From positions 55,468 to 119,467 of the forward strand of contig RDOB01000008.1 in the NCBI GenBank assembly GCA_011364965.1: a DNA stretch of 64,000 nucleotides, written 5' to 3'. Within the stretch, counting starts at the first letter, position 1, and every line of letters begins with the position of its first letter. This document shows, one piece after another, positions 29,197-51,340 of the stretch. The notes beneath the pieces were generated by a model. The model searched no databases. It saw nothing but the letters and a program-made list of their open reading frames with translations, and was not told where the DNA came from. The DNA is from Candidatus Heimdallarchaeota archaeon (lineage in GTDB: Archaea; Asgardarchaeota; Heimdallarchaeia; Hodarchaeales; Hodarchaeaceae). The translations under genes were made by a program, and so were the position numbers.

Positions 29197-32100
29197 TTGC
29201 TTTATTGTAAAGTCGACAAAAAGCGTTCTCTCATGTTTACGTGTCTCTTATTTAGCGTCATAGCGCTCTCTTTCTTTACTTTATTTAATAATATATCATT
29301 AATTAACAACCCAACTATTTTTTCTGCTCCTTCGACTCTATCAGATACTACTGATACACAAAATTGGGAGAACCTTAAGAATTTTCCTCTATTTTCAGTT
29401 CAACCTTTTCAAAAGCCTCAAATTCTATTTATAGTAGATGATTCTCAGACTTTAAGCCCAGAGAGAGATATTTCATTCTTCAATTTTATGAGTACAACAT
29501 TAAATTATAATGTTACTTATCATGATGCGAATAATTCCTATCAGTATGGAAATTTTGACGCTATTGTCATTTCAAGCTCCGTTGGAGAAGCTGCAGCAAC
29601 AATTAGTTCATTAATAAACGCAGAAATTCCAATTCTAACAATGCAAGGAGGACATTATGATGAATTCAAGCTAGGAGATTTCTATAGTATCAAAGATACA
29701 TCAAAATTCTACATTTATGATGGAGATCATTATGTATCTGAAAACCTTAATGCTAAATCCATATTTGCTGTTTATAATGACGAAATGCCTGTAAGCTATA
29801 TTCAAAATTATAATCCCATTCCAGTAGGTGTAGAAATTAATCTTATTGCAGTTCGATCTGATAAACAAGGGAATTTTTATTGGCCAAGTGACGCTACATG
29901 GGTAGTCCTAGATAAGGGAAAAAGTGCATGGGATTTTTCATTAGCTCCAGAACGGAGAGCTTTTTGGGGAGCAGGATGGGGTTCTTCAATGTCATCTAAT
30001 GGATGGAATAACTGGAATAGAACCTTAAGTTGGTTATTGTACAATGAGATTCCTGGAAATGCCACGATTAATGTTGAGGTAACAGACTTAGATGAAAAAT
30101 TGGTTTCTGATGCGCGTGTGATTCTAACAAATTCGAAAAATCAAAAATATTTCTGGATTCAAAATACAACCAGCTTAGGCTTAGCAACATTCAATGATAT
30201 TCCCTTTGGATACTATAATATCACTATAGAATATGAAGATACAATCAATACCGAACTACAGCTTCTAGAGGTCGCAGGAGAACGTACTTTTGATATCGAA
30301 CCTGATTTGTATTATTCTGTACAAATAGCAGAATATAGTGATAATACACCCCCAATGATTCTGGATGTCCAATTTATAACGAAAAATAGTACATTTTTGA
30401 CAAATGTATATGATGAAAGCACAATTTCTTCAGTTAATCTGAGTTTAATGATAAGAAACTCTACAGATGAAGAAATTTTACGAGATTCATCCTATTTTAT
30501 GGTTTCATTGAATGGATTTCATTATTTCAACGATACAGCATTAATAGGAATTCCAAATTCAGGAATTAATGTTGTTTATAATATATCAGCAATTGATGTC
30601 GCAGGGAATATAAAAGTCTCAAATAACCTCTTTTTTACCTTAGGAGATACTACTGCTCCAATAGTTCATGATTATAATGTATCAGATCATGAAGATGGTT
30701 CTTTACTTTTTTATGCAAATGTAACGGATGAAGAAAGCCTTGTTCAACAAGTTGTATTACGAATTAATAATTCTTATTATTATATGTCATTAAATTCCTC
30801 TGGTTTTTGGATTTTCGAAACTTTTGCTTATTACAATATATTATTGAATTATTCTATCCACGCAGCTATTGATAGTGTGGGAAATGAAAATAATGATACA
30901 ATCCATCCGAAATATGGTCTGGTTATTCCCCAGGATTCATTTAATCCAATTATATACGATCTAAGCCATAATTTAACAGAGGATCATGAAAAAGGATTTG
31001 TGGTTTTTCATGCCACAGTGGAAGAAACAAATATTTTTCAAAGTGGAGTAGATCGTAGTAGCATTATGATTCTTCTCTCAATCTATAATGGTACTTGGGA
31101 AAATACTTCTTGGCCACTGTATGCTATTGGAGAAATTACTTATGAATTTGAATACACATTCAACTTCAACGATACCGTGGTTTATCGAATAATGGCAGCT
31201 GATAATGCGGGTAATATTAATTGGGGATATGAGCATATCGCTGTAATTGGAGATAATAGTATGCCCCAAATAAGTTTTGATGCTCACGAATTTGGCAACG
31301 GATCAGTTCAGTTCACTTCTACTGTTGTAGATTGGCCAAATAATGAAACAGAAGTCACGCTTTATTATACACAGGATTATTTTGGGACTTGGGATAGTTC
31401 CTCAATGATACTGGTTGATGACAATACATACATTGAATTAATTCACAATTTTGATTATAGACTTCAGTATGTTTGGTTTTATGCCACAGCTATTGATGCT
31501 GCATCAAATCTTGTTGAAATTACTCCTGATCTATATCAAAAAACCGAGTTGAGTGATACAATCAGTCCAGAGGTTTATTTCGTCATAGAAAATTCAACCA
31601 CGATCGATGGAAAAATAAAAATTACTTCTTGGGCGATAGATCCTTATGGGGATACTCGGGATATAAATAACACATTTTACATTTCTTTTACTCAACAAGG
31701 AACCACCACACAATTTGAAATGATCTATGACTCATTTTATTTTTATAATTTTGATCATATCTTTAATTTTGGGGAAGAAATTAGTATTGAAGTATGGACT
31801 ATAGATAATGCAGGTAATATGGGTATAAAAAATCGATCATTTATAATAGGAGATTTCTCAGCTCCCAAGATTATCAACATGGGAATTGATGAATATCAAA
31901 ATGGCACAGTAACATTTTGGGCTGAAGTAATTGAATACGCTTCGGGAAGTGGACTTCCAAGCGATCAATCATCAGTACGACTTGAATATGTCTTTATCTC
32001 AAAATATAACATTACAATGACAAAGAATATGTTAGAGAACCTCTATACGTATACCGTTTCAGGCTTTGTTCCTGGTAATGCGTTTAACTATCGAATTAGT

Positions 32101-33600
32101 GCTTTTGATAACTGTAATAATACTGCGATTACAAATTGGAATATGGAAATTATTGAAGATGCCTCACCACCGATAATTTATGAATTTGGATATTATGAAA
32201 CTCTTATTAATCATTCATTCACTCAGTTAGATTTCTGGGTAAAAGCTGAAGATAATTTTGGTCCAATTGTTCGCGCAGACATCACAATTAATTACTTGGA
32301 TGGAATCTCTTGGGTAGATATTAATGGCGTGATGGAGATTACAGGAGAAGAATATGTATATTCAATCAGTTTACATTGCAATTGTACTTTTAATTATTCA
32401 ATCCATATTTATGACGCAAAGCCGAATTTAGTGGAGATAGGAGATTCTAGCTTGAGAACATACTGGGGACCGGTTATTATTGAATCGAAAATTATACAAA
32501 GAGGAAAGAATGAGATACTGATATGGGCAAACATCACAGACTGGGGATCAGGAGTAGGAGAAGTTATTCTGGAATATAACTACGAAACTCAAGGAAATGG
32601 AGGCGGTAAGGGAGCTGAACTTCAAATAGAGACAATACCCATGGCTTACAATGGGAGTTTATTTATTGCTACATTACAATTTTCTGAAAGTGGAACGATT
32701 TTATGGACAATAATTGCTAGGGATGGATCAAACACGTTGATAACCTCCTATTCTGCTCCACAGCCGTTCTTTGTTTCTTTACCTCTACAAACAATAACCT
32801 GGGAAGAAGTTTTACCTATAATTATTGGAGGAGTAAGCATCCCTCTAATAATTGTTTTAGCTGTTGTTGGTATTCGACGTAAGCAACAACGCAAAGCGCT
32901 GGCCAAGAAACAAAGAGATAAAGAAATAGCTCAACAATTTTCTGATATATTGAGTATTAGATCAATCATTTGCCGAAATAAATTTGGATTACCCTTTTAC
33001 ACAGAGAATTTTATAACTCAGACTCAAGATTTGGATTTAACAGCGGGATTAACCTCAGCAGTCAGTAATCTTGTTACAGAAGTATCTCAACGAGCTTTGA
33101 AAAAAGGAGAATTCGACCTTCTGGAAAGAGAAGGCTTTAGCATCTTATCCCATCACGGTGAGTATTCTACTATTAGTATAGTATCAGAAGGAAGACTAAG
33201 TCCTTATATGAAAGGGAAAATTGTGCAGTTGCACGATACAATCGAAGTACGATATGATCAAGAAAATCTAAATGATCCATCAATGGGGGAGTACCCAGAA
33301 GAATTTCGAGGATTGATCTATAAATATTTGAATGTTGGACTATTAAGCAAATTAACACTTGATGTCAAGCGTTTGCAAGAGAAAGAAAAACAATTCAGTG
33401 AAAATGAACGAAAACAATTATATTACTTGACAGAACACCTTCCAAAGCAACAGAATGTTCAAATCGCATTTTATATAACAACTTTTACTTCTTCCCTCAC
33501 GAGTAAAGGAATTTCGCTCGTTAAAGCCTATAAGCTTCTGGAGAAATGCTTCCGTTTGAAAATTATTTATCCGATATCACTCGAACCAAGACTTAATTAA
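29197..33600 (+). CDS. Large single-pass membrane protein: extracellular Ig-like repeats, TM helix, cytoplasmic longin-like domain
   Basis: N-terminal signal; about 7-8 repeats opening D-x-x-x-P-x-I and many closing (A)-x-D-x-A-G-N; TM at ~32800-32880 followed by RRKQQRK; cytoplasmic GLPFY...DLTAGLTSAVSNLVTEV...HGEYSTISIVSE. Confidence 0.85.
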   Translation: MLYCKVDKKRSLMFTCLLFSVIALSFFTLFNNISLINNPTIFSAPSTLSDTTDTQNWENLKNFPLFSVQPFQKPQILFIVDDSQTLSPERDISFFNFMSTTLNYNVTYHDANNSYQYGNFDAIVISSSVGEAAATISSLINAEIPILTMQGGHYDEFKLGDFYSIKDTSKFYIYDGDHYVSENLNAKSIFAVYNDEMPVSYIQNYNPIPVGVEINLIAVRSDKQGNFYWPSDATWVVLDKGKSAWDFSLAPERRAFWGAGWGSSMSSNGWNNWNRTLSWLLYNEIPGNATINVEVTDLDEKLVSDARVILTNSKNQKYFWIQNTTSLGLATFNDIPFGYYNITIEYEDTINTELQLLEVAGERTFDIEPDLYYSVQIAEYSDNTPPMILDVQFITKNSTFLTNVYDESTISSVNLSLMIRNSTDEEILRDSSYFMVSLNGFHYFNDTALIGIPNSGINVVYNISAIDVAGNIKVSNNLFFTLGDTTAPIVHDYNVSDHEDGSLLFYANVTDEESLVQQVVLRINNSYYYMSLNSSGFWIFETFAYYNILLNYSIHAAIDSVGNENNDTIHPKYGLVIPQDSFNPIIYDLSHNLTEDHEKGFVVFHATVEETNIFQSGVDRSSIMILLSIYNGTWENTSWPLYAIGEITYEFEYTFNFNDTVVYRIMAADNAGNINWGYEHIAVIGDNSMPQISFDAHEFGNGSVQFTSTVVDWPNNETEVTLYYTQDYFGTWDSSSMILVDDNTYIELIHNFDYRLQYVWFYATAIDAASNLVEITPDLYQKTELSDTISPEVYFVIENSTTIDGKIKITSWAIDPYGDTRDINNTFYISFTQQGTTTQFEMIYDSFYFYNFDHIFNFGEEISIEVWTIDNAGNMGIKNRSFIIGDFSAPKIINMGIDEYQNGTVTFWAEVIEYASGSGLPSDQSSVRLEYVFISKYNITMTKNMLENLYTYTVSGFVPGNAFNYRISAFDNCNNTAITNWNMEIIEDASPPIIYEFGYYETLINHSFTQLDFWVKAEDNFGPIVRADITINYLDGISWVDINGVMEITGEEYVYSISLHCNCTFNYSIHIYDAKPNLVEIGDSSLRTYWGPVIIESKIIQRGKNEILIWANITDWGSGVGEVILEYNYETQGNGGGKGAELQIETIPMAYNGSLFIATLQFSESGTILWTIIARDGSNTLITSYSAPQPFFVSLPLQTITWEEVLPIIIGGVSIPLIIVLAVVGIRRKQQRKALAKKQRDKEIAQQFSDILSIRSIICRNKFGLPFYTENFITQTQDLDLTAGLTSAVSNLVTEVSQRALKKGEFDLLEREGFSILSHHGEYSTISIVSEGRLSPYMKGKIVQLHDTIEVRYDQENLNDPSMGEYPEEFRGLIYKYLNVGLLSKLTLDVKRLQEKEKQFSENERKQLYYLTEHLPKQQNVQIAFYITTFTSSLTSKGISLVKAYKLLEKCFRLKIIYPISLEPRLN

Positions 33601-34882: not shown

Positions 34883-35342
34883 TTGAGTCGATTGAATCCC
34901 AATAAACTCCATGTCACCATTCTTACCCCAACGACAGCCAACTTACTAATTATACCCCGATGTTATACATTAACCCATTCAGATCGGACAGGAGATTTAT
35001 TCTTAACTATAGCCCCTGATTTCAATAAAAAACAACTCAGAGGGTGGCAAACCCGAATAATGCAGGATGAAGTTCTAGCAGAATGGGTGAACACCGAAAA
35101 AAAATATTCACTTCATATCTATTGCCAAATTAGTGGTAGAATCGCGGGATTGAAGTTTCGAGACAGAATCTTTCGACAGGAATTACCCCTAGTTTTAGAA
35201 TGTTTTCGATTTGGTGATCAGGGATTATATCAAACTCACCCCTTCCTTGATAGAACTCAGATCTGGGTTCACTTCAATTCAAAAAAACGAAAAATTCAAT
35301 AAAATTGAAACATAGGGGTATCTACAAGACTATAAAAGATAA
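34883..35342 (+). pseudogene. STAY-GREEN (SGR / Mg-dechelatase-like) family gene with disrupted C-terminus
   Basis: LNPNKLHV, PRCYTLTHSD.TG.LFLTI, DEVLAEW, IF.QELPLVL..F.FGD, IWVHF.S; the ORF stops at 35302 after an A7 run, and the +1 frame gives NEKFNKIET*GYLQDYKR*. Confidence 0.8.
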
Positions 35343-35389: not shown

Positions 35390-36094
35390 TTAATTCTTTT
35401 CTCGGAAGGAACGGTGACCTAAAATGATAATTATAGAACAGATTGAAAAAAATGACAATCCAGAAGTTAACTCAGGAGATGTAGTAGTATCAGATTCGTT
35501 TGAGGTAGACGTTAAGGATGTACTTGAGGAAATAGTTGTCTGCGTTGTCTGATAGGTCTCAATTAAAATATTAAATTCTCCTGTATATATTTCATAGAGC
35601 TCAGGAAGGTGTTCCACAGCATAGGTGGTATTGTAATTATCTAAAAGCTTTGCTAGGGCAAGAGGGAAAATTATCGAGTTGGCTACCTCAGTATATGCAA
35701 AGAAATCAAGTTCAAGATAACACTCATTCGCAGAAAAATAATCATTTGCATACCAATCTTGTATATCTCTAAATGGGTTACCAACCATCCAAAAAGCTTG
35801 ATATTGATTAGTTATATCGTAAAAGAAACAAAGAGCAGCTTTGATCTGATAATCGGTTTTATTTATTAGAACTGCAAAAAAAGAAAATGATTCAGTTGCA
35901 TCCATCCGAATAGTGGAGCTGAAGTTATAATTCATCATGAAAGTAAATGTAGATCCACTATGAAAACTATCAATGATTTCAACATCTGATATGACCGTTA
36001 CTGGATTCGAAACTGCAGAGATGGGGAAACAAACACTGAAAGAAAGTATATAGAGAAGAAAACCTATCATTATTTTATTTCGGGTGACATTCAT
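35390..36094 (-). CDS. Secreted surface protein with Ser/Thr-rich stalk and C-terminal TM anchor
   Basis: Signal peptide (IMIGFLLYILSFSVCFPISA), TTQTTISSSTSLTSTS stalk, TSGLSFFSICSIIIILGHRSFREKN end; ATG at 36094 lies 14 nt after the hcp stop. Confidence 0.8.
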   Translation of the reverse strand: MNVTRNKIMIGFLLYILSFSVCFPISAVSNPVTVISDVEIIDSFHSGSTFTFMMNYNFSSTIRMDATESFSFFAVLINKTDYQIKAALCFFYDITNQYQAFWMVGNPFRDIQDWYANDYFSANECYLELDFFAYTEVANSIIFPLALAKLLDNYNTTYAVEHLPELYEIYTGEFNILIETYQTTQTTISSSTSLTSTSNESDTTTSPELTSGLSFFSICSIIIILGHRSFREKN

Positions 36095-36108
36095 CTTCGA
36101 TCCACAGT

Positions 36109-36702
36109 TTAACCGGGTACTCCTCCCCAAGTAGCTTCATATTCAACATCTCCCTTTGCTACTCCCATCTCATCGAATTCCGTATATGTCCATTTAACCT
36201 TTTCATAAACAAAGGAAACCTGTTCGGAGGCAAAAGGATCATTATCAAGGGAAACACTTACATAATTCGAAACAGAGACTACAACTGCATTGGTTAACCT
36301 TATAGTAAGAAAATTCAGACTATTAGGTTCCGCATACACTTTAAAAATAATTTCTAAGATGCCTGTTCCTTTGTCTAAATATTCATACAATTTAGGTGTC
36401 GCTTTATCGACCGCCTTGACAATTCTAAATGGAGTATGAACGATATTACCCGTTGTTCGAGTTTCTAAATCATACAATGCCTTTATTGAATGGGAATAAG
36501 TATAGATTTCAATTGAGCCTTCACGATCCGCAACCTTGCATTCACCATCAATTCCTTCGATCCATAGATTCATACTCAATGGTGACTCTGCTGATAGTGT
36601 TGTCGTGTTTTGAATACTCAAAGCATTATCCAAAAATACCGTACCAATTCCCAAAATGAGAATAGTAGGGATTATAAATTTTGTGACAGTATTATTTTTC
36701 AT
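36109..36702 (-). CDS. hcp: Type VI secretion tube protein Hcp homologue with N-terminal signal/anchor
   Basis: IEGIDGE, REGSIEI..YSH, HTPFRIVKAVDKATPKLYE, LTIRLTNAVVVSV, EQVSFVYEKVKWTY; N-terminal 43 aa contain a hydrophobic helix. Confidence 0.9.
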   Translation of the reverse strand: MKNNTVTKFIIPTILILGIGTVFLDNALSIQNTTTLSAESPLSMNLWIEGIDGECKVADREGSIEIYTYSHSIKALYDLETRTTGNIVHTPFRIVKAVDKATPKLYEYLDKGTGILEIIFKVYAEPNSLNFLTIRLTNAVVVSVSNYVSVSLDNDPFASEQVSFVYEKVKWTYTEFDEMGVAKGDVEYEATWGGVPG

Positions 36703-37013
36703 TCTTTATCTCTCTTTCTGGGGATTTTGAAAAGTCTGATAAAATTAGGGATAAAAGTATAAAGATCTTCCGAAATAAATAGTAGGAAAGTTTTAATGCA
36801 AAAAAGCTGAGGAATAAAGGTACACTCGCAAATATAAAGAAGATCCTTATCAAAGAGTAATTTTGAGTAGAATCGTAATTTCATCCAAGAAATCTCATTA
36901 TGGTTAGTGAAGAAGGGAAAAATCTCTAAAAGAGAAAAAGAGTTAAAAGAATACGCGGAGGATTATTTTAAATCATTTATACTGCCATAATTGATGATTT
37001 GGAGGACAAATCG

Positions 37014-39072: not shown

Positions 39073-39684
39073 ATGAAGAAAAAATCGTCCTATAAGATGG
39101 CAAGTATTGCTATCGTATTTCTTCTGGTAGCAATAATGTTAGGGGCAGGAATAGCACCAGTAAGCGCTCGTGTACCTGGTCATATCGAATATAATCCCTC
39201 TTATTATAAAAGCGTACGACTATATCATAGAATTACAACAGGCGTAGTAGTTATCTGGGGGATTATCATACTTGATGTCTTTTATAATGGTCAAACAGGG
39301 CTGATTCATGTTACGGACGTCTGGTTTTATACATCAGTAGATTCATGGACAGCAATTGAAATAAAATTGGTAAACTGGATTCCAGTGCCTTTCCCGACAT
39401 ATGGAGAAGTAAAAACTGTGAAAATGCGTTGCTATATTGGTGGACAACTTGTTCATTCCTATAATGTGCACACATCTTCTACTTATATACGAGATGTTCA
39501 CAAAGAGCATGAATATTATTATCGACCTAGTAGTGAATTAACATCAATCTCTGCAAAGATTGAAGTTTCCTATGACTGTCGAGAGTATGGATTGGTCCCA
39601 TTGATTCCCATTCCACTTTATATGTGGCATTATGCTTCTGGAACCATGTCTACTACAACGGGAGCTTATGTCGTGTGGGATTAA
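39073..39684 (+). CDS. Secreted beta-rich hypothetical protein
   Basis: Classical signal peptide (MKKK...APVSA); aromatic- and beta-strand-rich; T-tract after the stop. Confidence 0.75.
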   Translation: MKKKSSYKMASIAIVFLLVAIMLGAGIAPVSARVPGHIEYNPSYYKSVRLYHRITTGVVVIWGIIILDVFYNGQTGLIHVTDVWFYTSVDSWTAIEIKLVNWIPVPFPTYGEVKTVKMRCYIGGQLVHSYNVHTSSTYIRDVHKEHEYYYRPSSELTSISAKIEVSYDCREYGLVPLIPIPLYMWHYASGTMSTTTGAYVVWD

Positions 39685-45223: not shown

Positions 45224-48200
45224 TTGATATTGTATAAAAAATCAGATTTCCTGATTAGAGGGATTATTTTATTAAGTATTTTTCTAATTTTCAGCTTTTT
45301 TGATACTCAAGCACATAGCATACCTTTAAAGCCAGATATTGAAAGTAACCAATCTCCTAAGAGACTAATGGGTTTAGAAAAAAAAGTAAATCCAGTTACG
45401 TCGAGAATTATTAACTCAAAACCAGAAGATAATGCAGAGACAATATCTTCAGCTCTACTTTGCCCTAAGAAGAATAATCCAGAGAAAAATCACTCTTCAA
45501 ATACTGTAATAAAGACTGCAGCTGCCTTAGCAAAAGAAATAGGGATTCCATCGTCTTATTTTGATACAAATAGAATCCTTCAAATTACAAATGATAAACT
45601 CCATGTGGTAATTGGGTTTCATTCATCGTTTATTCTCGATTACTCCGATTATAAGTCGTATGTACTTGAATCAAACTTAAAAATAGTCCGAGCACTCCCC
45701 GAAATCAACGCGATTGTTGTAGAAGTGGACATATCAGCATTAAAATTATTTTTAAATTCTTGGAATAATCTACCTTTCATTCGGTATTTGGAACTTGCTC
45801 AAATAACGTCTGTTTCCGCAATAACCGATGATCCAGATTGGGACATCCAATATGGTCCACAAATAATTCAGACTGATCTTGCATGGGACATTCAAAAGGG
45901 GGATCCTAGTACAGTTTTAATAGCAGTTATTGATACGGGTATTGATTATACCCACCCTGACTTAGCAGATCAGTATATCACGGGAGGATATGATTATGTG
46001 AATAATGACTGGGATCCTATGGATGACCATAGCCATGGAACACATTGCGCAGGAACTATAGGAGCCACTATCAATAATTCAATAGGTATTGCGGGAGTGG
46101 CCAATGTTTCGATAATGGGGTATAAAGTATTCAATTCAGGGGGATTTGGATTTGATTACGACGCGGCCGATGCAATCATCAATGCAACGAACTTCGGAGC
46201 AGATATATTATCAAATAGCTATGGATTTCCCAGCTCAAACCCAGTACTAGCTGATGCGGTAGCATATGCTGCGGTACATGATGTTGTTATTGTAGTTTCT
46301 GCAGGGAATAGTGGCGCGCCAGTTTCAAGCTATCCTGCATTGTATCCTGAAACAATCACGGTGAGTGCAACTGATGATTCTGATACTCCAGCATCCTTCA
46401 CCAGCTATGGATCAGCAGTAGATGTAGCAGCTCCTGGGGTTGATATTTGGTCTACTTTACCAGTATCTATGGGAAATTACGGCTATAAAAGTGGTACTTC
46501 TATGGCTTGTCCCCATGTAGCGGGAGTCTGTGCACTAATTCGTGCACAATTCCCTTCATTTACTGCAGATCAAGTCCGACAGCATTTACGAATGAGCGCC
46601 GATGATCTAGGCTCCATAGGATGGGATGATTACTATGGTTATGGACGAGTGAATGCCTTTAAGGCTGTTCAACCCCCTCCCCAACACGAACTAGTTACTT
46701 ATCTCCATGGAAATCCTGAAGCGATACTCCCTGGAGAGACGATTAAACTAAACATTTCAGTTTATAATTATGGACAGGAAAATGAAACAGATATTCAATT
46801 ACAATTATGGATTAATGATACACTGATTGAAGAAAAAACCTTTACTACTCTAAATGTGGGCGATATTGGATCATTTAGTTATTCTTGGTCCCCCAGTCTT
46901 CTAGGAACTTATAATATAAGCGTCTATGCATCTCCTGTTCTAGATGAAACTTATACTGCCAATAATAGAATCATCAAGTATGTTTATGTCAGATATCCGA
47001 TTATATCTTATGATCTTGGGGATTTCATTGAGATGAATTTTGTGTCAGATGGAACTCCAATTATAAATTTCACCTACACAACAGAAATTGACCCAACTCA
47101 TATAAGGATAGACTTCGGAAATGGATATGATTGGTTCATTGTAAACACTCTCACTCGATATATCTCATCAGGGACAACATGGGTCGGTTACTATTATATG
47201 GGGCAGATTGAAACAGGATTAAAAATAGGTGACTCTGTAAAATGGTATGCAACAACGGGTATCGTTAACAATACAGTTTATTATAATTGGGATGGGATGT
47301 TATTAGAAGCATGGAATCTAACGATTGCAGAGGGCGTTTTTGCTTACTATCATAAAACAACAGGGATATGGTTATATTATAATGAATTTGGGACAGAAAT
47401 AGAAATGGTAAATACAAGTTTCATAGTCTGGCAACCTCCCGAACACGAGCTCCGTGCTTCTTTACGAGCTCCTGGAATCATACCTGTCAACAATGCCACT
47501 TTCGTTAATGTAACTGTTTATAATGAAGGACGCAACAATGAAACAAATGTAGAGGTTCAGCTATGGATCAATGATAGCATGGAGAGTTCTCAAATCTTTC
47601 TTTCAGTGAACTCAGGTACTGAAGTTACCCTCTCATATAGCTGGAGACCCCTTTTAAATGGAGTGTATAACATCACAGCTTATGTCATTCCTGTGGTTAA
47701 TGAAACACTCCTGTTCAATAATTTTGAAACTATTTTCTCATTAGTTCAAGAACCATCAGATTACCTTATTATCCAAGATGCAAACCCTTGGAACTTTGAT
47801 TGGACAACACTACTTGGGATTATTGGTATTACCTATGATATAGTGCCCTCAAATTCTTTTGGTGCAATGAATCTCTCTTTCTATGGACGTATAATTATCC
47901 CCTCGGATCAACCTCAAGAATTTTATACTCAAATTGAAAATCAAATGTCGATTCTTGAAGGATTTGTCCAGCAGGGAGGAATTCTTGAGGTTCATGCTAC
48001 CGATCAAGGAGAAAATGAGGGGATGTGGGAAGGATTCCTTCCTAATGGGATCAGTTATATCTCAGTGGAATCAAACAGTATAGAAGTTGAGGATCCAAGT
48101 AACCTGCTTCTCTTTCATCCATATGTGATCACTAAATATGATTTAAACGCTTGGGGACCTGCTGTAGGAGGGTACCTTGCGAATATAGGGAATGCTAATG

Positions 48201-51200
48201 TAATATTAACAAGCTTAAGTCAACCCATCATGATCGAACTTGCAGTAGGAGAAGGATATTATCTTATCACTACTCAGACTTTGGAATTGGGATATTCATA
48301 TGCTGAAAGTCGATTTTTCGAAAATCTCCTCCAATATAATCCTGCACCCCCACCTCACGAAATAGGAGTGGGGTTAGAATGTGCTTCTTTGCTTCCAAAT
48401 GGGACATCAGTTTTACTCAATGCAACATTGGCAAATCATGGTATTAGCACAGAGGCTAATGTCTACTTAGAGATCTGGATTAATGATACATTATATGTAA
48501 ATAACTCCTATCCGTCCTTAATAGGGATGTCAACAGAGTTAGTTCAATATGAATGGAACCCAATAAAGACAGGCTTCTATAATATCACAGTTTTCGCTCC
48601 TCCTGTGATAGGTGAAGTGACTACATTAAATAACTATTTAGAAGCATCGTGTCTGGTTAAATATCTTGTGAACTATACACTGTATGAAACAGAATTCGGT
48701 TGGTTTGATGCATATGCCAATGGATACAATACGAATCTAACGGGAGATGATACATATTATGCACTAAACTTGCCATTCCCATTCTTCTATTATGATGTAA
48801 ATTTCACAAGTATCTATATCAGCTCGAATGGATGGTTCTCATTTACTGATAGTAGCCCTACAACCTTTTCTAATCCAACTTTTCCTACTGCAAGCTTTCC
48901 ATACGCCATTGCAGTATTTTGGGATGATTTACAAGCGCAGGAAAATGTGTATATCTGGAATACAACCTCATTTGTTGCTATAGAATACCACAATTATAGC
49001 ACCCTTGGGGGAAGTGTGATCGGGAATTTTGAACTCATCCTTTTTGAGAATGGAACAATACTAATGCAATATCAAAATATTCTCCTTGATTTCGGAGCAA
49101 CTATTGGTTTAAACTATGGGGAAGACCAGAGCTATTATTCAGCCTATACTAAAGGAATATCAGGAGTTTCTGAGCTTAGATTGCTATTTACTAGTGAACC
49201 ATTGAAAAGACACGATTTAACTACTGAGATAGAAGCTCCTACGGGTATCCTCTATGATGAAATCATGTTGATCGTAATTAACGCCTCCGTCCACAATGCA
49301 GGTACGTACGATGAAAATGACATCGCATTTGAGCTATGGGTCAACTACACCCTTGTACTACAAGAAATTATCCCCTCTCTTCTAGTTGGAGAATCAACCA
49401 CATTCAGCTATGAATGGATTCCAACTACCAGAGGAGATTATAACATTACTTCGGTTGCTTTACCAGTAGAAAATGAGACTTTCACAGTAAATAATAGAGA
49501 AACCCGAACAGGTGTAATTGATGACCCTCGTCTTAATTTCTCATTGGGAGACTATATTGACTTTTACTTCACAATGGGAGGTGATCCTAGTCCTTACGCA
49601 ACTTTTACTTATATATCGATGTTAGATCTCGTTCATGTCTATGTAGAAGTGATTATTCTGGGTGGAATGGGTACAGAATGGATATCGATAAATATTGTTA
49701 ACAGATTAATAGAAGATGGGTCAATATGGGTAGGAATGTACGCTTTCCACCATATTGAAACCGATATAGCTCTTGGAGATACAGTGAAATGGATGGAAGG
49801 AGATGGAACTGTGACTGGAACAGTTTGGCATGCCTGGAATGGAGCTACTTTAGAAGCTTGGAATATCTCACTGAATGAACCTTCTTCAAGCTATTATGCA
49901 TATTATGATAAGATTTCAGGAGTAATACTCTATTTGAAGGACACAGAGAGCGGAATAAGTATGTTTATCGTCGATACAACAATGATCGAATTATATGCAC
50001 CAATAATCAGTAGTGTTTATCCAAGCTCAGGTGATTTTGTTACTGGAGTAATCACAATTACTTGGACAGCAACTGATCCAGATAACGGGACATTACATTA
50101 CACGCTAAACTATTGGAATGGTACGGAATGGATAAATTTAGAAACAGGGCAATTGACCTCAGTTTATATCTGGGATACTACAGTTCTCGCGGATGGAGAT
50201 TTCTATCGACTGCAACTAATTGTAAGTGATGGATACTTTAGTCAAGAAAATATTACTGCTACTTCATTCACAGTAACTAATCAAGCTGAACCCCCCACTG
50301 TACATCTACTCTATCCGAACGGAGGGGAAGTACTTAATGGACAAGTTATTATTAGCTGGAGTGCAACTGATCCTCAAAGTATAACTCTTAATTTTATACT
50401 GTATTACTGGGATGGGGATGACTGGATACTCATTGCAAGTAATATTGGTAATTCATATTATAACTGGGATACCACAACTGTAGAAGATGGTAATTCATAT
50501 TCCATTCGAATAATTGCTAGTAATGGCATCTTATCAGCAGAGGATCAATCCAATTCAAGCTTTACAATCAATAATCCTAATGCTCCAATAGTTCAATTGG
50601 GATATCCTATTGAAGAAGGACCTTATAATGGAACAATAATTATCACGTGGATTGCAACTGATCTTGATGGGGATATTTTAATATTTACTCTTTATTATTG
50701 GAACAGCACATCATGGGTGGAAATTGAGAGTGGTATCACAGGTACGAGCTATCAATGGGACAGCACAACTGTAACTGATGGAGAGGACTATTTAATTCGG
50801 ATTGTAGGCACTGATGGCAGCTTAACAGGAGAAAGTCAATCAGTTGTACCATTTATAATCAATAATCCTGACCCTCCAACTGTGCAGCTGCTAACTCCAC
50901 AGACGGAAGGACCATTTAACGAAACCATTTTAATCACCTGGAATGCAAACGATCTCGATAATGAAACGTTAGTTTACACGCTTTCTTACTGGGATGGTAG
51001 TAACTGGATTGAAATTATTACAGGCCTCACTAGTGAATCATATACCTGGAATGTCTCGACTCTTCCCAATGGAGACCACTATCAACTACGTATTGTAGCC
51101 AGTGACGGTACTCTGACCTGTGAGGCTATTTCATCAACTACTTTTGAAATCTATAACGAATCCTTTACCAGTTCCTCGAATCTCACAACGAATCCAATAA

Positions 51201-51340
51201 CGACTTCCACATCATCTAGTACAAGCCTCCCAGCAACAACACGACCAAAACCTTCCATTGGTTTTGAAACACTCATTGGCATTTTAATCACTGGACTATT
51301 AGGATCGTTCAGAATAAGCAAACGAAGGAAAAGGAGATAA
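45224..51340 (+). CDS. Cell-surface S8 subtilase with CARDB-like repeats, NIDO-like insert, four Ig-like repeats and C-terminal anchor
   Basis: Triad motifs VIDTG, HGTHCAG, GTSMACPHVAG; 4x V.N.G...E......LWIN repeats; 4x ITW.A.D.D...YW.G..W...WD repeats; Thr/Ser stalk then PSIGFE-TM-KRRKRR. Confidence 0.95.
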   Translation: MILYKKSDFLIRGIILLSIFLIFSFFDTQAHSIPLKPDIESNQSPKRLMGLEKKVNPVTSRIINSKPEDNAETISSALLCPKKNNPEKNHSSNTVIKTAAALAKEIGIPSSYFDTNRILQITNDKLHVVIGFHSSFILDYSDYKSYVLESNLKIVRALPEINAIVVEVDISALKLFLNSWNNLPFIRYLELAQITSVSAITDDPDWDIQYGPQIIQTDLAWDIQKGDPSTVLIAVIDTGIDYTHPDLADQYITGGYDYVNNDWDPMDDHSHGTHCAGTIGATINNSIGIAGVANVSIMGYKVFNSGGFGFDYDAADAIINATNFGADILSNSYGFPSSNPVLADAVAYAAVHDVVIVVSAGNSGAPVSSYPALYPETITVSATDDSDTPASFTSYGSAVDVAAPGVDIWSTLPVSMGNYGYKSGTSMACPHVAGVCALIRAQFPSFTADQVRQHLRMSADDLGSIGWDDYYGYGRVNAFKAVQPPPQHELVTYLHGNPEAILPGETIKLNISVYNYGQENETDIQLQLWINDTLIEEKTFTTLNVGDIGSFSYSWSPSLLGTYNISVYASPVLDETYTANNRIIKYVYVRYPIISYDLGDFIEMNFVSDGTPIINFTYTTEIDPTHIRIDFGNGYDWFIVNTLTRYISSGTTWVGYYYMGQIETGLKIGDSVKWYATTGIVNNTVYYNWDGMLLEAWNLTIAEGVFAYYHKTTGIWLYYNEFGTEIEMVNTSFIVWQPPEHELRASLRAPGIIPVNNATFVNVTVYNEGRNNETNVEVQLWINDSMESSQIFLSVNSGTEVTLSYSWRPLLNGVYNITAYVIPVVNETLLFNNFETIFSLVQEPSDYLIIQDANPWNFDWTTLLGIIGITYDIVPSNSFGAMNLSFYGRIIIPSDQPQEFYTQIENQMSILEGFVQQGGILEVHATDQGENEGMWEGFLPNGISYISVESNSIEVEDPSNLLLFHPYVITKYDLNAWGPAVGGYLANIGNANVILTSLSQPIMIELAVGEGYYLITTQTLELGYSYAESRFFENLLQYNPAPPPHEIGVGLECASLLPNGTSVLLNATLANHGISTEANVYLEIWINDTLYVNNSYPSLIGMSTELVQYEWNPIKTGFYNITVFAPPVIGEVTTLNNYLEASCLVKYLVNYTLYETEFGWFDAYANGYNTNLTGDDTYYALNLPFPFFYYDVNFTSIYISSNGWFSFTDSSPTTFSNPTFPTASFPYAIAVFWDDLQAQENVYIWNTTSFVAIEYHNYSTLGGSVIGNFELILFENGTILMQYQNILLDFGATIGLNYGEDQSYYSAYTKGISGVSELRLLFTSEPLKRHDLTTEIEAPTGILYDEIMLIVINASVHNAGTYDENDIAFELWVNYTLVLQEIIPSLLVGESTTFSYEWIPTTRGDYNITSVALPVENETFTVNNRETRTGVIDDPRLNFSLGDYIDFYFTMGGDPSPYATFTYISMLDLVHVYVEVIILGGMGTEWISINIVNRLIEDGSIWVGMYAFHHIETDIALGDTVKWMEGDGTVTGTVWHAWNGATLEAWNISLNEPSSSYYAYYDKISGVILYLKDTESGISMFIVDTTMIELYAPIISSVYPSSGDFVTGVITITWTATDPDNGTLHYTLNYWNGTEWINLETGQLTSVYIWDTTVLADGDFYRLQLIVSDGYFSQENITATSFTVTNQAEPPTVHLLYPNGGEVLNGQVIISWSATDPQSITLNFILYYWDGDDWILIASNIGNSYYNWDTTTVEDGNSYSIRIIASNGILSAEDQSNSSFTINNPNAPIVQLGYPIEEGPYNGTIIITWIATDLDGDILIFTLYYWNSTSWVEIESGITGTSYQWDSTTVTDGEDYLIRIVGTDGSLTGESQSVVPFIINNPDPPTVQLLTPQTEGPFNETILITWNANDLDNETLVYTLSYWDGSNWIEIITGLTSESYTWNVSTLPNGDHYQLRIVASDGTLTCEAISSTTFEIYNESFTSSSNLTTNPITTSTSSSTSLPATTRPKPSIGFETLIGILITGLLGSFRISKRRKRR

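What the first reader, a model, noticed from the sequence alone, without database searches (positions are those of the whole stretch)
35390..36702. Orphan T6SS Hcp tube protein with an export signal, paired with a surface-anchored protein, in an archaeon
Seen: residues 44-197 carry the Hcp motif series, preceded in frame by a basic-hydrophobic leader and a Thr-rich linker. No sheath, VgrG, baseplate or phage genes occur in the 64 kb. The next gene, 14 nt downstream, has a signal peptide, an S/T stalk and a C-terminal anchor. Established: Hcp is a signal-less cytoplasmic hexamer that stacks into tubes, and canonical T6SS is bacterial. Inference: a domesticated Hcp exported by Sec to form surface rings or tubes (adhesion, conduit, cargo display), possibly tethered by the neighbouring protein.
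Basis: partly seen in the sequence, partly recalled or inferred. Interest (0 to 1): 0.85.

Follow-up and report, generated by a model that had tools for sequence, protein, structure and literature searches.

The report
Exported Hcp–partner gene pair, Asgard archaea
An Asgard (Hodarchaeales-type) archaeon with no injection machinery encodes a true copy of the bacterial type VI secretion tube protein Hcp behind a conserved export leader, always followed by the same surface-anchored partner gene, so the Hcp ring fold seems to have been reused as a two-protein cell-surface device of unknown job.

Summary
Window 36109-36702(-) encodes 197 aa whose residues 46-173 match Pfam T6SS_HCP (E 1.3e-25) and TIGR03344, and the model folds like solved Hcp1 structures.

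The 43-residue leader and linker are real. They are kept in every orthologue examined, evolve with third-codon-position bias, and are followed by a conserved N-x-S/T sequon. A conserved upstream block precedes ATG 36702, so Met44 is not the start.

No TssC, TssE/gp25, VgrG or phage-sheath gene was found in any of 22 genomes of the genus, one of them a single 4.9 Mb contig.

The gene 14 nt downstream has a signal peptide, a roughly 150-aa domain of no known family, a Thr/Ser stalk and a PGF-like "Heimdall-CTERM" tail. In the genus it occurs in the same 16 of 20 other genomes as Hcp. The pair has duplicated as a unit.

Best reading: a Sec-exported or N-anchored Hcp-like ring working with an anchored glycoprotein. 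Ring formation and binding are inferred, not shown.

NCBI already auto-names these genes "T6SS tube protein Hcp". I found no paper on them. This scan has reported exported orphan Hcps before on other DNA, including this Hodarchaeales pair (e1-5455028).

The parts
36703..36790 (-). Conserved upstream block, putative promoter and 5'UTR of the cassette
   Evidence: Blocks TTCGGxAxATCTTT, CCCTA, CTTTTCAA and GAGAGA are shared with the 72%-identical orthologue locus L038. Similarity fades further upstream. The function is inferred.
36616..36702 (-). Hcp-like gene, codons 1-29: the leader, with a basic n-region MKNNTVTK, a hydrophobic core, and a c-region DNALS with small residues at -3 and -1
   Evidence: The leader is kept in all 15 orthologues of A3 and in every further locus examined. 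Against L038 it shows 14 synonymous and 9 non-synonymous codon changes, with differences by codon position of 10/2/20. AF2 models residues 4-32 as a low-confidence helix.
36574..36615 (-). Codons 30-43: linker carrying the N-x-S/T sequon (N32-T33-T34)
   Evidence: N32 is nearly invariant. Orthologues read VNAS(T) or NTTT at this spot. STT3/AglB is present in the genome.
36112..36573 (-). Codons 44-197: Hcp (TssD-family) beta-barrel domain
   Evidence: PF05638 E 1.3e-25. TIGR03344 78.6 bits. AF2 core pLDDT above 90. Foldseek matches Hcp1 entries 4w64, 1y12 and 7fcf at E 1e-13 to 6e-15 with TM-score by target 0.75-0.88. A profile search of PDB sequences finds 7fcf at E 6e-33.
36109..36111 (-). 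Stop codon TAA of the Hcp-like gene; 14 nt separate it from the partner's ATG
36008..36094 (-). Partner gene, codons 1-29: Sec-type signal peptide ending A27-V28-S29
35558..36007 (-). Partner codons 30-179: conserved ectodomain of no known family, beta-rich followed by a helix. It carries the motifs YNFSST and FWMxGDPF..Q.W and several sequons.
   Evidence: A4 has invariant F90, W102, P107, W114, L127 and A148. The family has 38 members, and every one that NCBI names comes from an Asgard MAG and is called a hypothetical protein, with no Pfam domain. The AF2 model is poor, pLDDT 56.
35462..35557 (-). Partner codons 180-211: Thr/Ser-rich stalk
35390..35461 (-). Partner codons 212-234 and stop: a PGF-like (here SGL) motif, a hydrophobic helix and a basic end, that is, a Heimdall-CTERM-like sorting or anchor tail
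   Evidence: G212 is invariant, and orthologues read PGF, PGL, SGF or SGY. An orthologue scores 18.2 bits on NF045529, below the cut-off of 24. The tail is near-identical in pattern to an above-cut-off tail of the same genome, TTTNPELTSGFELLF...KKRRS. Profile positions 174-223 of the partner hit the tails of other surface proteins.

Best explanation
This is a two-gene surface cassette. Gene 1 encodes an Hcp-family beta-barrel made with an N-terminal Sec leader. The domain is therefore translocated across the single archaeal membrane and probably N-glycosylated at the conserved sequon just after the leader. It then either stays tethered by the uncleaved helix or is released by signal peptidase after A27-L28-S29. 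Outside the cell it most likely assembles into the hexameric ring typical of the fold, lying face-on to the membrane. Gene 2 is probably co-transcribed with gene 1. It encodes a secreted glycoprotein with a roughly 150-aa ectodomain on a Thr/Ser stalk, held at the surface by a PGF-like Heimdall-CTERM tail that an archaeosortase-family enzyme may process. The two proteins act together, as a ring plus a stalked ligand or cap, in a role that involves no sheath, baseplate or spike. Shown: family membership and fold; a conserved and translated leader; no contractile-system genes found in the genus; strict adjacency, co-occurrence and co-duplication with the partner. Inferred: the Sec route, outside topology, glycosylation, ring assembly, physical contact between the two proteins, and any biological role such as envelope architecture, adhesion or cell-cell contact.
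For: Hcp identity rests.

The leader is real. It is kept in 15 of 15 orthologues at 42-72% identity, in the group-B paralogues and in other Asgard classes, where it looks like a classic cleavable signal peptide (..FFVQA|VN..LVLG|VN..LVIA|LT). Substitutions in the leader are biased to the third codon position, 10/2/20, with 14 synonymous and 9 non-synonymous codon changes. A conserved block lies upstream of ATG 36702.

Outside topology is supported by positive charges only before the helix and acidic residues after it, by the conserved N-x-S/T sequon right after the helix, and by AglB in the genome.

No machine was found. VipB/TssC, GPW_gp25/TssE, Phage_GPD/VgrG and Phage_sheath_1 each gave 0 of 22 genomes of the genus, including a single-contig 4.9 Mb genome that carries the cassette. 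The controls rang in E. coli.

The pair behaves as a unit. The partner lies 3-45 nt downstream in all 13 loci measured, while the flanking genes differ. Within the genus the same 16 of 20 other genomes have both genes and the same 4 lack both. The paralogous group-B cassettes again pair a leader-Hcp with a partner homologue at E 1e-19 to 1e-34. Outside the genus a leader-Hcp is always followed by a protein with a signal peptide and a C-terminal anchor.

The ring unit has indirect support. Among close relatives with several Hcp domains in one chain, 9 have exactly 6 domains, 5 have 3 and 7 have 2. Solved fusion proteins carry Hcp1 at the C-terminal end of hexameric ATPases (4ksr, 6ap1, 7o42). 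From these I infer that N-terminal extensions are compatible with the hexamer and leave on one face of it.

For the anchor, the genome has 12 Heimdall-CTERM tails above cut-off and one exosortase/archaeosortase-family gene (TIGR04178, 40 bits).
Against: No signal-peptide or topology predictor was available, so cleavage and orientation are judged by eye. The hydrophobic core is 16 residues here but 20-22 in many orthologues, which fits an uncleaved anchor as well as a signal peptide.

Met44 is invariant in the 15 genus orthologues of A3 and recurs in more distant exported relatives, so a leaderless isoform from internal initiation cannot be excluded.

The window's own partner tail has SGL rather than PGF, and neither the NF045529 protein scan nor the genome search at E <= 0.1 listed it.

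The genome is 87% complete, so absence of the searched families in it alone would be weak. The genus-wide result is what carries the argument.
Confidence: 0.6

Rival explanations
1. Carrier or chaperone variant. The exported Hcp-like ring does not build a structure of its own. Instead it holds the partner's roughly 17 kDa ectodomain in its lumen, as T6SS Hcp holds small effectors, stabilising or presenting it at the surface.
For: The pairing is strict and the pair co-duplicated. The partner ectodomain of about 150 aa is within the size that, from established knowledge (Silverman et al. 2013, recalled from memory), T6SS Hcp lumens accommodate.
Against: There is no direct evidence of contact. 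Outside the genus the downstream anchored protein can be 697-982 aa, too large for a lumen.
Confidence: 0.15
2. Soluble secreted protein. The leader is cleaved and the Hcp-like protein is released into the medium or surface layer as free rings or monomers, unrelated in function to the neighbouring gene except for co-expression.
For: The c-region fits the -3/-1 rule here (A-L-S) and in most orthologues. Relatives outside the genus have textbook cleavable signal peptides.
Against: Co-occurrence and co-duplication with the partner argue for a joint function. The long hydrophobic cores in many orthologues suggest retention in the membrane.
Confidence: 0.15
3. Conventional cytoplasmic tube protein. 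Translation starts at Met44 and the protein serves a T6SS-like or extracellular contractile injection system, or a tailed provirus, encoded elsewhere.
For: Met44 is invariant in the 15 A3 orthologues. NCBI annotates the Ca. Harpocratesius orthologue from a downstream start as a 163-aa Hcp. This genome is 87% complete.
Against: The leader is conserved and under coding constraint. A conserved block lies upstream of ATG 36702. TssC, TssE/gp25, VgrG and phage sheath were each found in 0 of 22 genomes. The ORFs scanned against Pfam include no phage genes. The flanking genes differ between loci.
Confidence: 0.03
4. Bacterial contamination of the metagenome bin.
For: Hcp is overwhelmingly bacterial.
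Against: Orthologous cassettes sit inside single-contig Asgard genomes of 4.94, 4.36 and 3.16 Mb. The window's G+C is even at 0.32-0.40. The partner carries the lineage-specific Heimdall-CTERM-like tail.
Confidence: 0.01

Closest known systems
Hcp / TssD, the inner tube protein of bacterial type VI secretion (Pfam PF05638, TIGR03344; solved examples A. baumannii Hcp1 4W64, P. aeruginosa Hcp1 1Y12, 7FCF)
   Same: The sequence family matches above the curated cut-offs. The fold is the same beta-barrel with one helix, with TM-score by target 0.75-0.88.
   Different: The canonical protein has no signal peptide, assembles in the cytoplasm inside a TssBC sheath on a VgrG/baseplate, and is bacterial. 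Here there is a conserved export or anchor leader and a sequon, no sheath, baseplate or spike gene in 22 genomes, an archaeal host, and an obligate downstream partner.
Exported, leader-bearing Hcp-like proteins of bacteria and other archaea seen in metagenomes and in earlier reports of this scan (for example e1-5208216, e1-5261688, e1-5210200 and e1-5455028)
   Same: An Hcp domain sits behind a hydrophobic leader with no T6SS nearby. 111 of 147 close Hcp domains analysed carry such a leader.
   Different: The Asgard group forms its own clade (25 rows, SH-like support 97). It is defined by the fixed partner with a Heimdall-CTERM-like tail. Deeper relations are unresolved.
PGF-CTERM / archaeosortase A substrates (for example the Haloferax S-layer glycoprotein) and NCBIfam NF045529 Heimdall-CTERM surface proteins, compared with the partner
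   Same: Both have a Thr-rich stalk, a [PS]-G-[FLY] motif, a hydrophobic helix and a basic end at the extreme C-terminus. The genome has 12 such tails above cut-off and an exosortase/archaeosortase-family gene.
   Different: The window's copy reads SGL and scores below cut-off. Processing has never been shown for Heimdall-CTERM; I found no paper on it. The ectodomain has no known family.
Single-chain multi-Hcp proteins (P0008, P0012, P0014 and others, with six tandem Hcp domains)
   Same: They carry the closest Hcp domains outside the Asgard clade (34% identity). They bear extracellular features: Big_13, dockerin and hydrophobic or LExLExRxLLA-type N-termini.
   Different: They are covalent pseudo-hexamers in what look like bacterial contigs. 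The Asgard protein is a single domain.

Membership tests
Hcp/TssD protein family (PF05638, TIGR03344) | Profile match above the curated cut-off | tested here: met
   PF05638 scores 90.6 bits against a cut-off of 23.5. TIGR03344 scores 78.6 bits against 58.9.
Hcp/TssD protein family (PF05638, TIGR03344) | Hcp beta-barrel fold | tested here: met
   The AF2 core has pLDDT above 90. The top 50 Foldseek matches are all Hcp chains or Hcp fusion proteins, at E down to 6e-15.
Hcp/TssD protein family (PF05638, TIGR03344) | Assembles into hexameric rings | not testable with these tools
   A hexamer cannot be modelled here. Support is indirect only: relatives with 6, 3 or 2 tandem domains and Hcp1 C-terminal fusions in hexameric chains.
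Type VI secretion system (as a system) | Tube subunit lacks a signal peptide and is made in the cytoplasm | tested here: not met
   A conserved N-terminal hydrophobic leader is under coding constraint.
Type VI secretion system (as a system) | Genome encodes sheath TssB/C, baseplate TssE and spike VgrG | tested here: not met
   VipB, GPW_gp25 and Phage_GPD were each found in 0 of 22 genomes of the genus. TssB, TssF/G/K and TssM were not searched separately.
Extracellular contractile injection system or phage tail | Sheath and gp25-like baseplate wedge genes | tested here: not met
   Phage_sheath_1 was found in 0 of 22 genomes and GPW_gp25 in 0 of 22. The gp19-type tube family was not searched.
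Sec (type I) signal peptide, for the Hcp leader | Basic n-region, hydrophobic h-region, and small residues at -3 and -1 | tested here: inconclusive
   By eye the leader reads MKNNTVTK / FIIPTILILGIGTVFL / A-L-S|I. Most orthologues fit, but many have h-regions of 20-22 residues. No predictor was available, so a cleaved peptide and a signal anchor both remain open.
Class III (type IV pilin-like) signal peptide | [KR]-[GA] cleavage motif directly before the hydrophobic stretch | tested here: not met
   The residue before the helix is K or R itself, with no G or A, in all orthologues.
Heimdall-CTERM surface proteins (NF045529), for the partner | Profile match above cut-off at the extreme C-terminus | tested here: inconclusive
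   The window's partner gave no hit. Orthologues scored 18.2 and 12.6 bits against a cut-off of 24. The model has only 26 positions.
Heimdall-CTERM surface proteins (NF045529), for the partner | [PS]-G-[FLY] motif, hydrophobic helix and basic end after a Thr-rich stalk; the genome uses the signal and has a sortase-family enzyme | tested here: met
   G212 is invariant and the architecture holds in 13 of 13 sequences. The genome has 12 tails above cut-off. Tails were compared side by side. TIGR04178 scores 40 bits, although PF09721 gave no match.

The most novel reading that the evidence does not exclude
The exported Hcp ring and its stalked partner form a previously unseen archaeal surface structure. 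One possibility is membrane-tethered rings capped or bridged by the partner. Asgard archaea, which lack a classical S-layer in the few species imaged (from memory), might use such a structure for cell-cell contact, adhesion to syntrophic partners, or as a conduit. That would be a second, machine-independent life of the contractile-tail tube fold, shared with the many leader-bearing and six-fold tandem Hcp proteins of bacteria.
Probability: 0.2. Interest if true: 0.85.

Novelty: new variant of a known kind. Interest (0 to 1): 0.62.

Why it matters
Hcp is taught as a signal-less cytoplasmic tube subunit that leaves the cell only when a sheath contracts. This cassette places a bona fide Hcp domain behind an export leader in a lineage that shows no trace of such a machine. 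It also gives the domain a fixed partner that has co-duplicated with it.

That makes a concrete, testable case that the tube or ring fold has an independent extracellular role. Two further observations point the same way: many exported Hcp-like proteins exist in metagenomes, and some chains carry six tandem Hcp domains.

For Asgard biology it adds a defined candidate component of a poorly understood cell surface. It also links that component to the uncharacterised Heimdall-CTERM sorting signal.

Finally, it flags an annotation trap. Automatic pipelines name these genes "T6SS tube protein Hcp" and in at least one genome choose a start that removes the leader.

Tried and rejected
Complex prediction of Hcp residues 44-197 with partner residues 30-190, each as an alignment, scored 0.01 against a mark of 0.32. 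That is no verdict either way.

I tested whether the partner is a diverged Hcp or tube fold. hhalign of A4 against A3 gave probability 0.8%, so there was no support.

Atlas language-model features put the partner nearest to archaeal MAST/Sarcinarray (PF27849) and PGF-CTERM clusters at 0.83-0.86. That is a lead only and was not confirmed; Pfam and NCBIfam scans gave nothing for the ectodomain.

A FastTree of 147 Hcp domains recovered the Asgard clade, but deeper branches were unresolved (18 of 141 starred). No donor or origin can be named.

Archaeal SSU rRNA was not found in this bin, so the domain assignment rests on other evidence.

PF09721 (exosortase EpsH) gave no match, while the broader TIGR04178 did.

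Literature searches for Hcp with Asgard, archaea, signal peptide, tandem or Planctomycetes, and for Heimdall-CTERM, found nothing relevant. Two candidate papers were read and proved unrelated.

A look-up of this scan's notes by sequence found no look-alike window.
Full report
**What is at the coordinates**

On the minus strand, ORF 36109-36702 encodes 197 aa.
- Residues 46-173 match Pfam T6SS_HCP over the whole 129-position model (E 1.3e-25, 90.6 bits against a cut-off of 23.5).
- Residues 53-175 match TIGR03344 TssD above its cut-off.
- An AlphaFold2 model built on 15 orthologues has a confident core (most 10-residue blocks above 90), consisting of a beta-barrel and one helix.
- Its best structural matches are all solved Hcp proteins or Hcp fusion constructs (4w64, 7fcf, 1y12, 3eaa and others; E down to 6e-15; TM-score by target 0.75-0.88).
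- A profile search of PDB sequences agrees (7fcf at E 6e-33).

The Hcp call is therefore secure.

The sequence before the domain reads MKNNTVTK, FIIPTILILGIGTVFL, DNALS, IQ, NTT, LSAESPLS, and then M44.

**Is the leader real?**

That refuter fails on four counts.
- All 15 orthologues aligned (42-72% identity) keep the same layout: MK, a few polar residues, K or R, then a hydrophobic stretch of about 16-22 residues with an invariant Gly. After it comes an N-x-S/T sequon (VNAST in most, NTTT here), a short variable linker, and then the Hcp strand xMNLxIEG.
- Against the 72%-identical orthologue (L038), the 43 leader codons show 14 synonymous and 9 non-synonymous changes. Differences by codon position are 10/2/20. 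The domain shows the same pattern, 23/19/54. The leader is therefore constrained as coding sequence in this frame.
- About 80 nt upstream of ATG 36702 contain conserved blocks, and similarity fades beyond them. This fits a promoter and 5'UTR ahead of the leader, which is inference.
- In other Asgard classes the leader looks like a textbook cleavable signal peptide (..FFVQA|VN..LVLG|VN..LVIA|LT).

One caveat remains. Met44 is invariant in the 15 A3 orthologues and recurs in more distant exported relatives. It may be a fossil of the ancestral start or simply a core residue of the first strand. A minor leaderless isoform cannot be excluded without RNA or protein data.

**Topology**

Positive charges lie only before the helix and acidic residues after it. 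That predicts an N-in, C-out orientation by the positive-inside rule (established knowledge). The conserved sequon right after the helix makes sense only outside the cell, and the genome has an STT3/AglB gene (E 1.8e-50), a search that rang only in the archaeal controls.

The leader has no twin arginine, and no [KR]-[GA] prepilin site before the helix. Sec is therefore the likely route.

Whether signal peptidase cuts after A27-L28-S29 or the helix stays as an anchor is open. The -3/-1 rule fits in most orthologues, but many hydrophobic cores are 20-22 residues long.

**No contractile machine**

The genome is 2.97 Mb in 16 contigs and 87% complete, and it holds a single Hcp gene.

| Family searched | Own genome | Genus (22 genomes) |
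|---|---|---|
| VipB / TssC | none | 0 of 22 |
| GPW_gp25 / TssE | covered by the genus search | 0 of 22 |
| Phage_GPD / VgrG | none | 0 of 22 |
| Phage_sheath_1 | none | 0 of 22 |

The genus set includes a single-contig 4.9 Mb genome that carries the cassette. The E. coli control rang in every one of these searches.

The 22 window ORFs I scanned are transporters, peptidases, a penicillin amidase, a subtilase and the like, with no phage genes.

**The host**

- Partner homologues that carry NCBI names all come from Hodarchaeales, Hodarchaeota, Heimdallarchaeota or Promethearchaeota MAGs.
- The single-contig genus member is a Ca. Heimdallarchaeota archaeon, in which the gene is auto-named "type VI secretion system tube protein Hcp" (UCG04571.1).
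- Earlier notes of this scan also call the genome Hodarchaeales-type Asgard.
- G+C is even across the window.

Contamination is excluded by the orthologous cassettes that sit inside single-contig Asgard genomes.

**The partner**

The downstream protein is 234 aa, from ATG 36094. In order it has:
- a signal peptide ending ..ISAVS|N;
- a conserved domain of about 150 aa rich in sequons, with motifs YNFSST and FWMxGDPF..Q.W;
- a Thr/Ser stalk;
- a tail reading PELTSG-L-SFFSICSIIIILG-HRSFREKN.

The family has 38 members, and every one that NCBI names is an Asgard MAG "hypothetical protein", with no Pfam domain.

The tail follows the pattern [PS]-G-[FLY], hydrophobic helix, basic end, with an invariant Gly.
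- NCBIfam has a 26-position model for such tails, Heimdall-CTERM (NF045529). An orthologue scores 18.2 bits, below the cut-off of 24, and the window's own copy (SGL) is not detected.
- The genome has 12 tails above cut-off. One of them, TTTNPELTSGFELLF...KKRRS, is almost superimposable on the partner's TTTSPELTSGLSFF...REKN.
- Profile positions 174-223 of the partner hit the tails of other surface proteins across the genus.
- An exosortase/archaeosortase-family gene is present (TIGR04178, 40 bits).

The partner is therefore best read as a stalked surface glycoprotein with a PGF-type sorting or anchor signal. Processing of that signal is inferred.

**The two genes are one unit**

- The partner follows the Hcp gene at 3-45 nt in all 13 loci measured, while the flanking genes differ between loci.
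- In the genus, the same 16 of 20 other genomes have both genes and the same four have neither. Every full-length partner match lies next to an Hcp gene. These genomes are kin, so the counts are not independent.
- Some genomes hold a second, diverged cassette (group B). It is again a leader-Hcp followed by a partner homologue at E 1e-19 to 1e-34, so the pair duplicated together.
- Across 301 genomes of the phylum, Hcp-family genes occur in 24, concentrated in this genus and patchy elsewhere.
- In all six out-of-genus loci read, the leader-Hcp is followed by a protein with a signal peptide and a C-terminal anchor. Two of these are recognisable partner homologues, two are of the same size and layout, and two are much larger.

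**Does it form rings?**

This is not shown. Two indirect points support it.
- Among the 150 closest representatives in 1.8 billion proteins, 24 chains carry several Hcp domains. The counts are 9 chains with six domains, 5 with three and 7 with two, with single cases of 4, 5 and 7 that are partly truncated or split. Divisors of six are what a hexameric unit predicts. Several of these chains have extracellular domains (Big_13, dockerin) or secretion-type N-termini.
- Solved hexameric fusion constructs carry Hcp1 at the C-terminal end of the chain (4ksr, 6ap1, 7o42). From this I infer that N-terminal extensions are compatible with the ring and leave it on one face, which would lay a tethered ring flat on the membrane.

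**How it most likely works**

Sec exports the Hcp-like domain, which is glycosylated and either tethered or released. It forms a ring at the surface and acts with the stalked, anchored partner. I put the overall picture at about 0.6.

| Step | My estimate |
|---|---|
| Family membership | about 0.98 |
| Leader is functional | about 0.85 |
| No contractile machine | about 0.9 |
| Functional coupling with the partner | about 0.85 |
| Physical binding to the partner | about 0.5 |
| Ring assembly | about 0.6 |

The biological role is unknown. Candidates are envelope architecture, adhesion, contact with partner cells, or presentation of the partner in the ring lumen.

**Comparison with what is known, and novelty**

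The protein is a member of the Hcp protein family by sequence and fold. It fails the two system-level features of T6SS tested here: a signal-less cytoplasmic subunit, and co-encoded sheath, baseplate and spike genes.

Leader-bearing Hcp-like proteins are frequent among its relatives: 111 of 147 close Hcp domains analysed carry a hydrophobic leader. The Asgard group is a distinct clade (SH-like support 97).

I found no paper on exported Hcp, on Asgard Hcp or on Heimdall-CTERM. Public annotation simply calls the genes T6SS Hcp. In Ca. Harpocratesius repetitus the annotated product is 163 aa, although the 194-aa ORF includes the signal peptide.

This scan has already reported exported orphan Hcps on other DNA, including the same Hodarchaeales pair (e1-5455028). 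Within the scan this is therefore a repeat that adds detail:
- codon-level proof that the leader is translated;
- co-duplication of the pair;
- the link between the partner's tail and the Heimdall-CTERM signal and an archaeosortase-family gene;
- the six-fold tandem relatives.

I rate it a new variant of a known kind, with interest 0.62.

Noticed in passing
P0008 (locus L021:480-6974), P0012, P0014, P0015, P0021, P0024, P0038, P0045, P0079: Giant proteins of 1048-2164 aa carry exactly six tandem Hcp domains in one chain. Others carry three or two. Some have Big_13 or dockerin domains, and some have planctomycete-style LExLExRxLLA N-termini. They look like covalent pseudo-hexameric Hcp rings made for export, and I found no paper on them.
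   Followed up: partly
L033:4254-4835 (G234, Ca. Harpocratesius repetitus, MCF2140055.1): NCBI annotates this Hcp as 163 aa, but the ORF is 194 aa and begins with a classic signal peptide (..FFVQA|VN). The automatic start choice hides the export leader.
   Followed up: partly
window 45224-51340 (+): A 2038-aa subtilase (Peptidase_S8) with CARDB repeats ends in a Thr/Ser stalk and a Heimdall-CTERM-like tail (19.3 bits, below cut-off). It is a large anchored surface protease.
   Followed up: partly
G000:C13:98214-98489 (+), outside the window: This is the only exosortase/archaeosortase-family match in the genome (TIGR04178, 40 bits, ORF of 257 aa). It is a candidate processing enzyme for the 12 or more Heimdall-CTERM proteins. 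PF09721 does not detect it.
   Followed up: no
window 29197-33600 (+): A 1467-aa protein has no Pfam match. It has an N-terminal hydrophobic leader, a huge sequon-rich ectodomain, one transmembrane helix near residue 1190 and a roughly 250-aa cytoplasmic tail. It resembles the giant single-pass receptors noted elsewhere in this genome by the scan.
   Followed up: no
window 34883-35302 (+): A Staygreen-family protein (PF12638, E 6.7e-41), the family of plant Mg-dechelatases, is encoded in an Asgard archaeon directly beside the cassette.
   Followed up: no
window 36571-36573 (codon 44 of the Hcp gene): Met44, at the start of the first Hcp strand, is invariant in the 15 genus orthologues and common in bacterial exported Hcps (..DMFIKIEG, ..PMFIKFEG). 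It may be a fossil of the ancestral start codon.
   Followed up: partly
L036:177-3122 and L037:825-2915: In two Asgard genomes of another family, the leader-Hcp is followed by a 982-aa or 697-aa secreted, C-terminally anchored protein rather than by the roughly 230-aa partner.
   Followed up: no
window 39073-39684 (+): A 203-aa protein has a signal peptide or anchor and no Pfam match.
   Followed up: no
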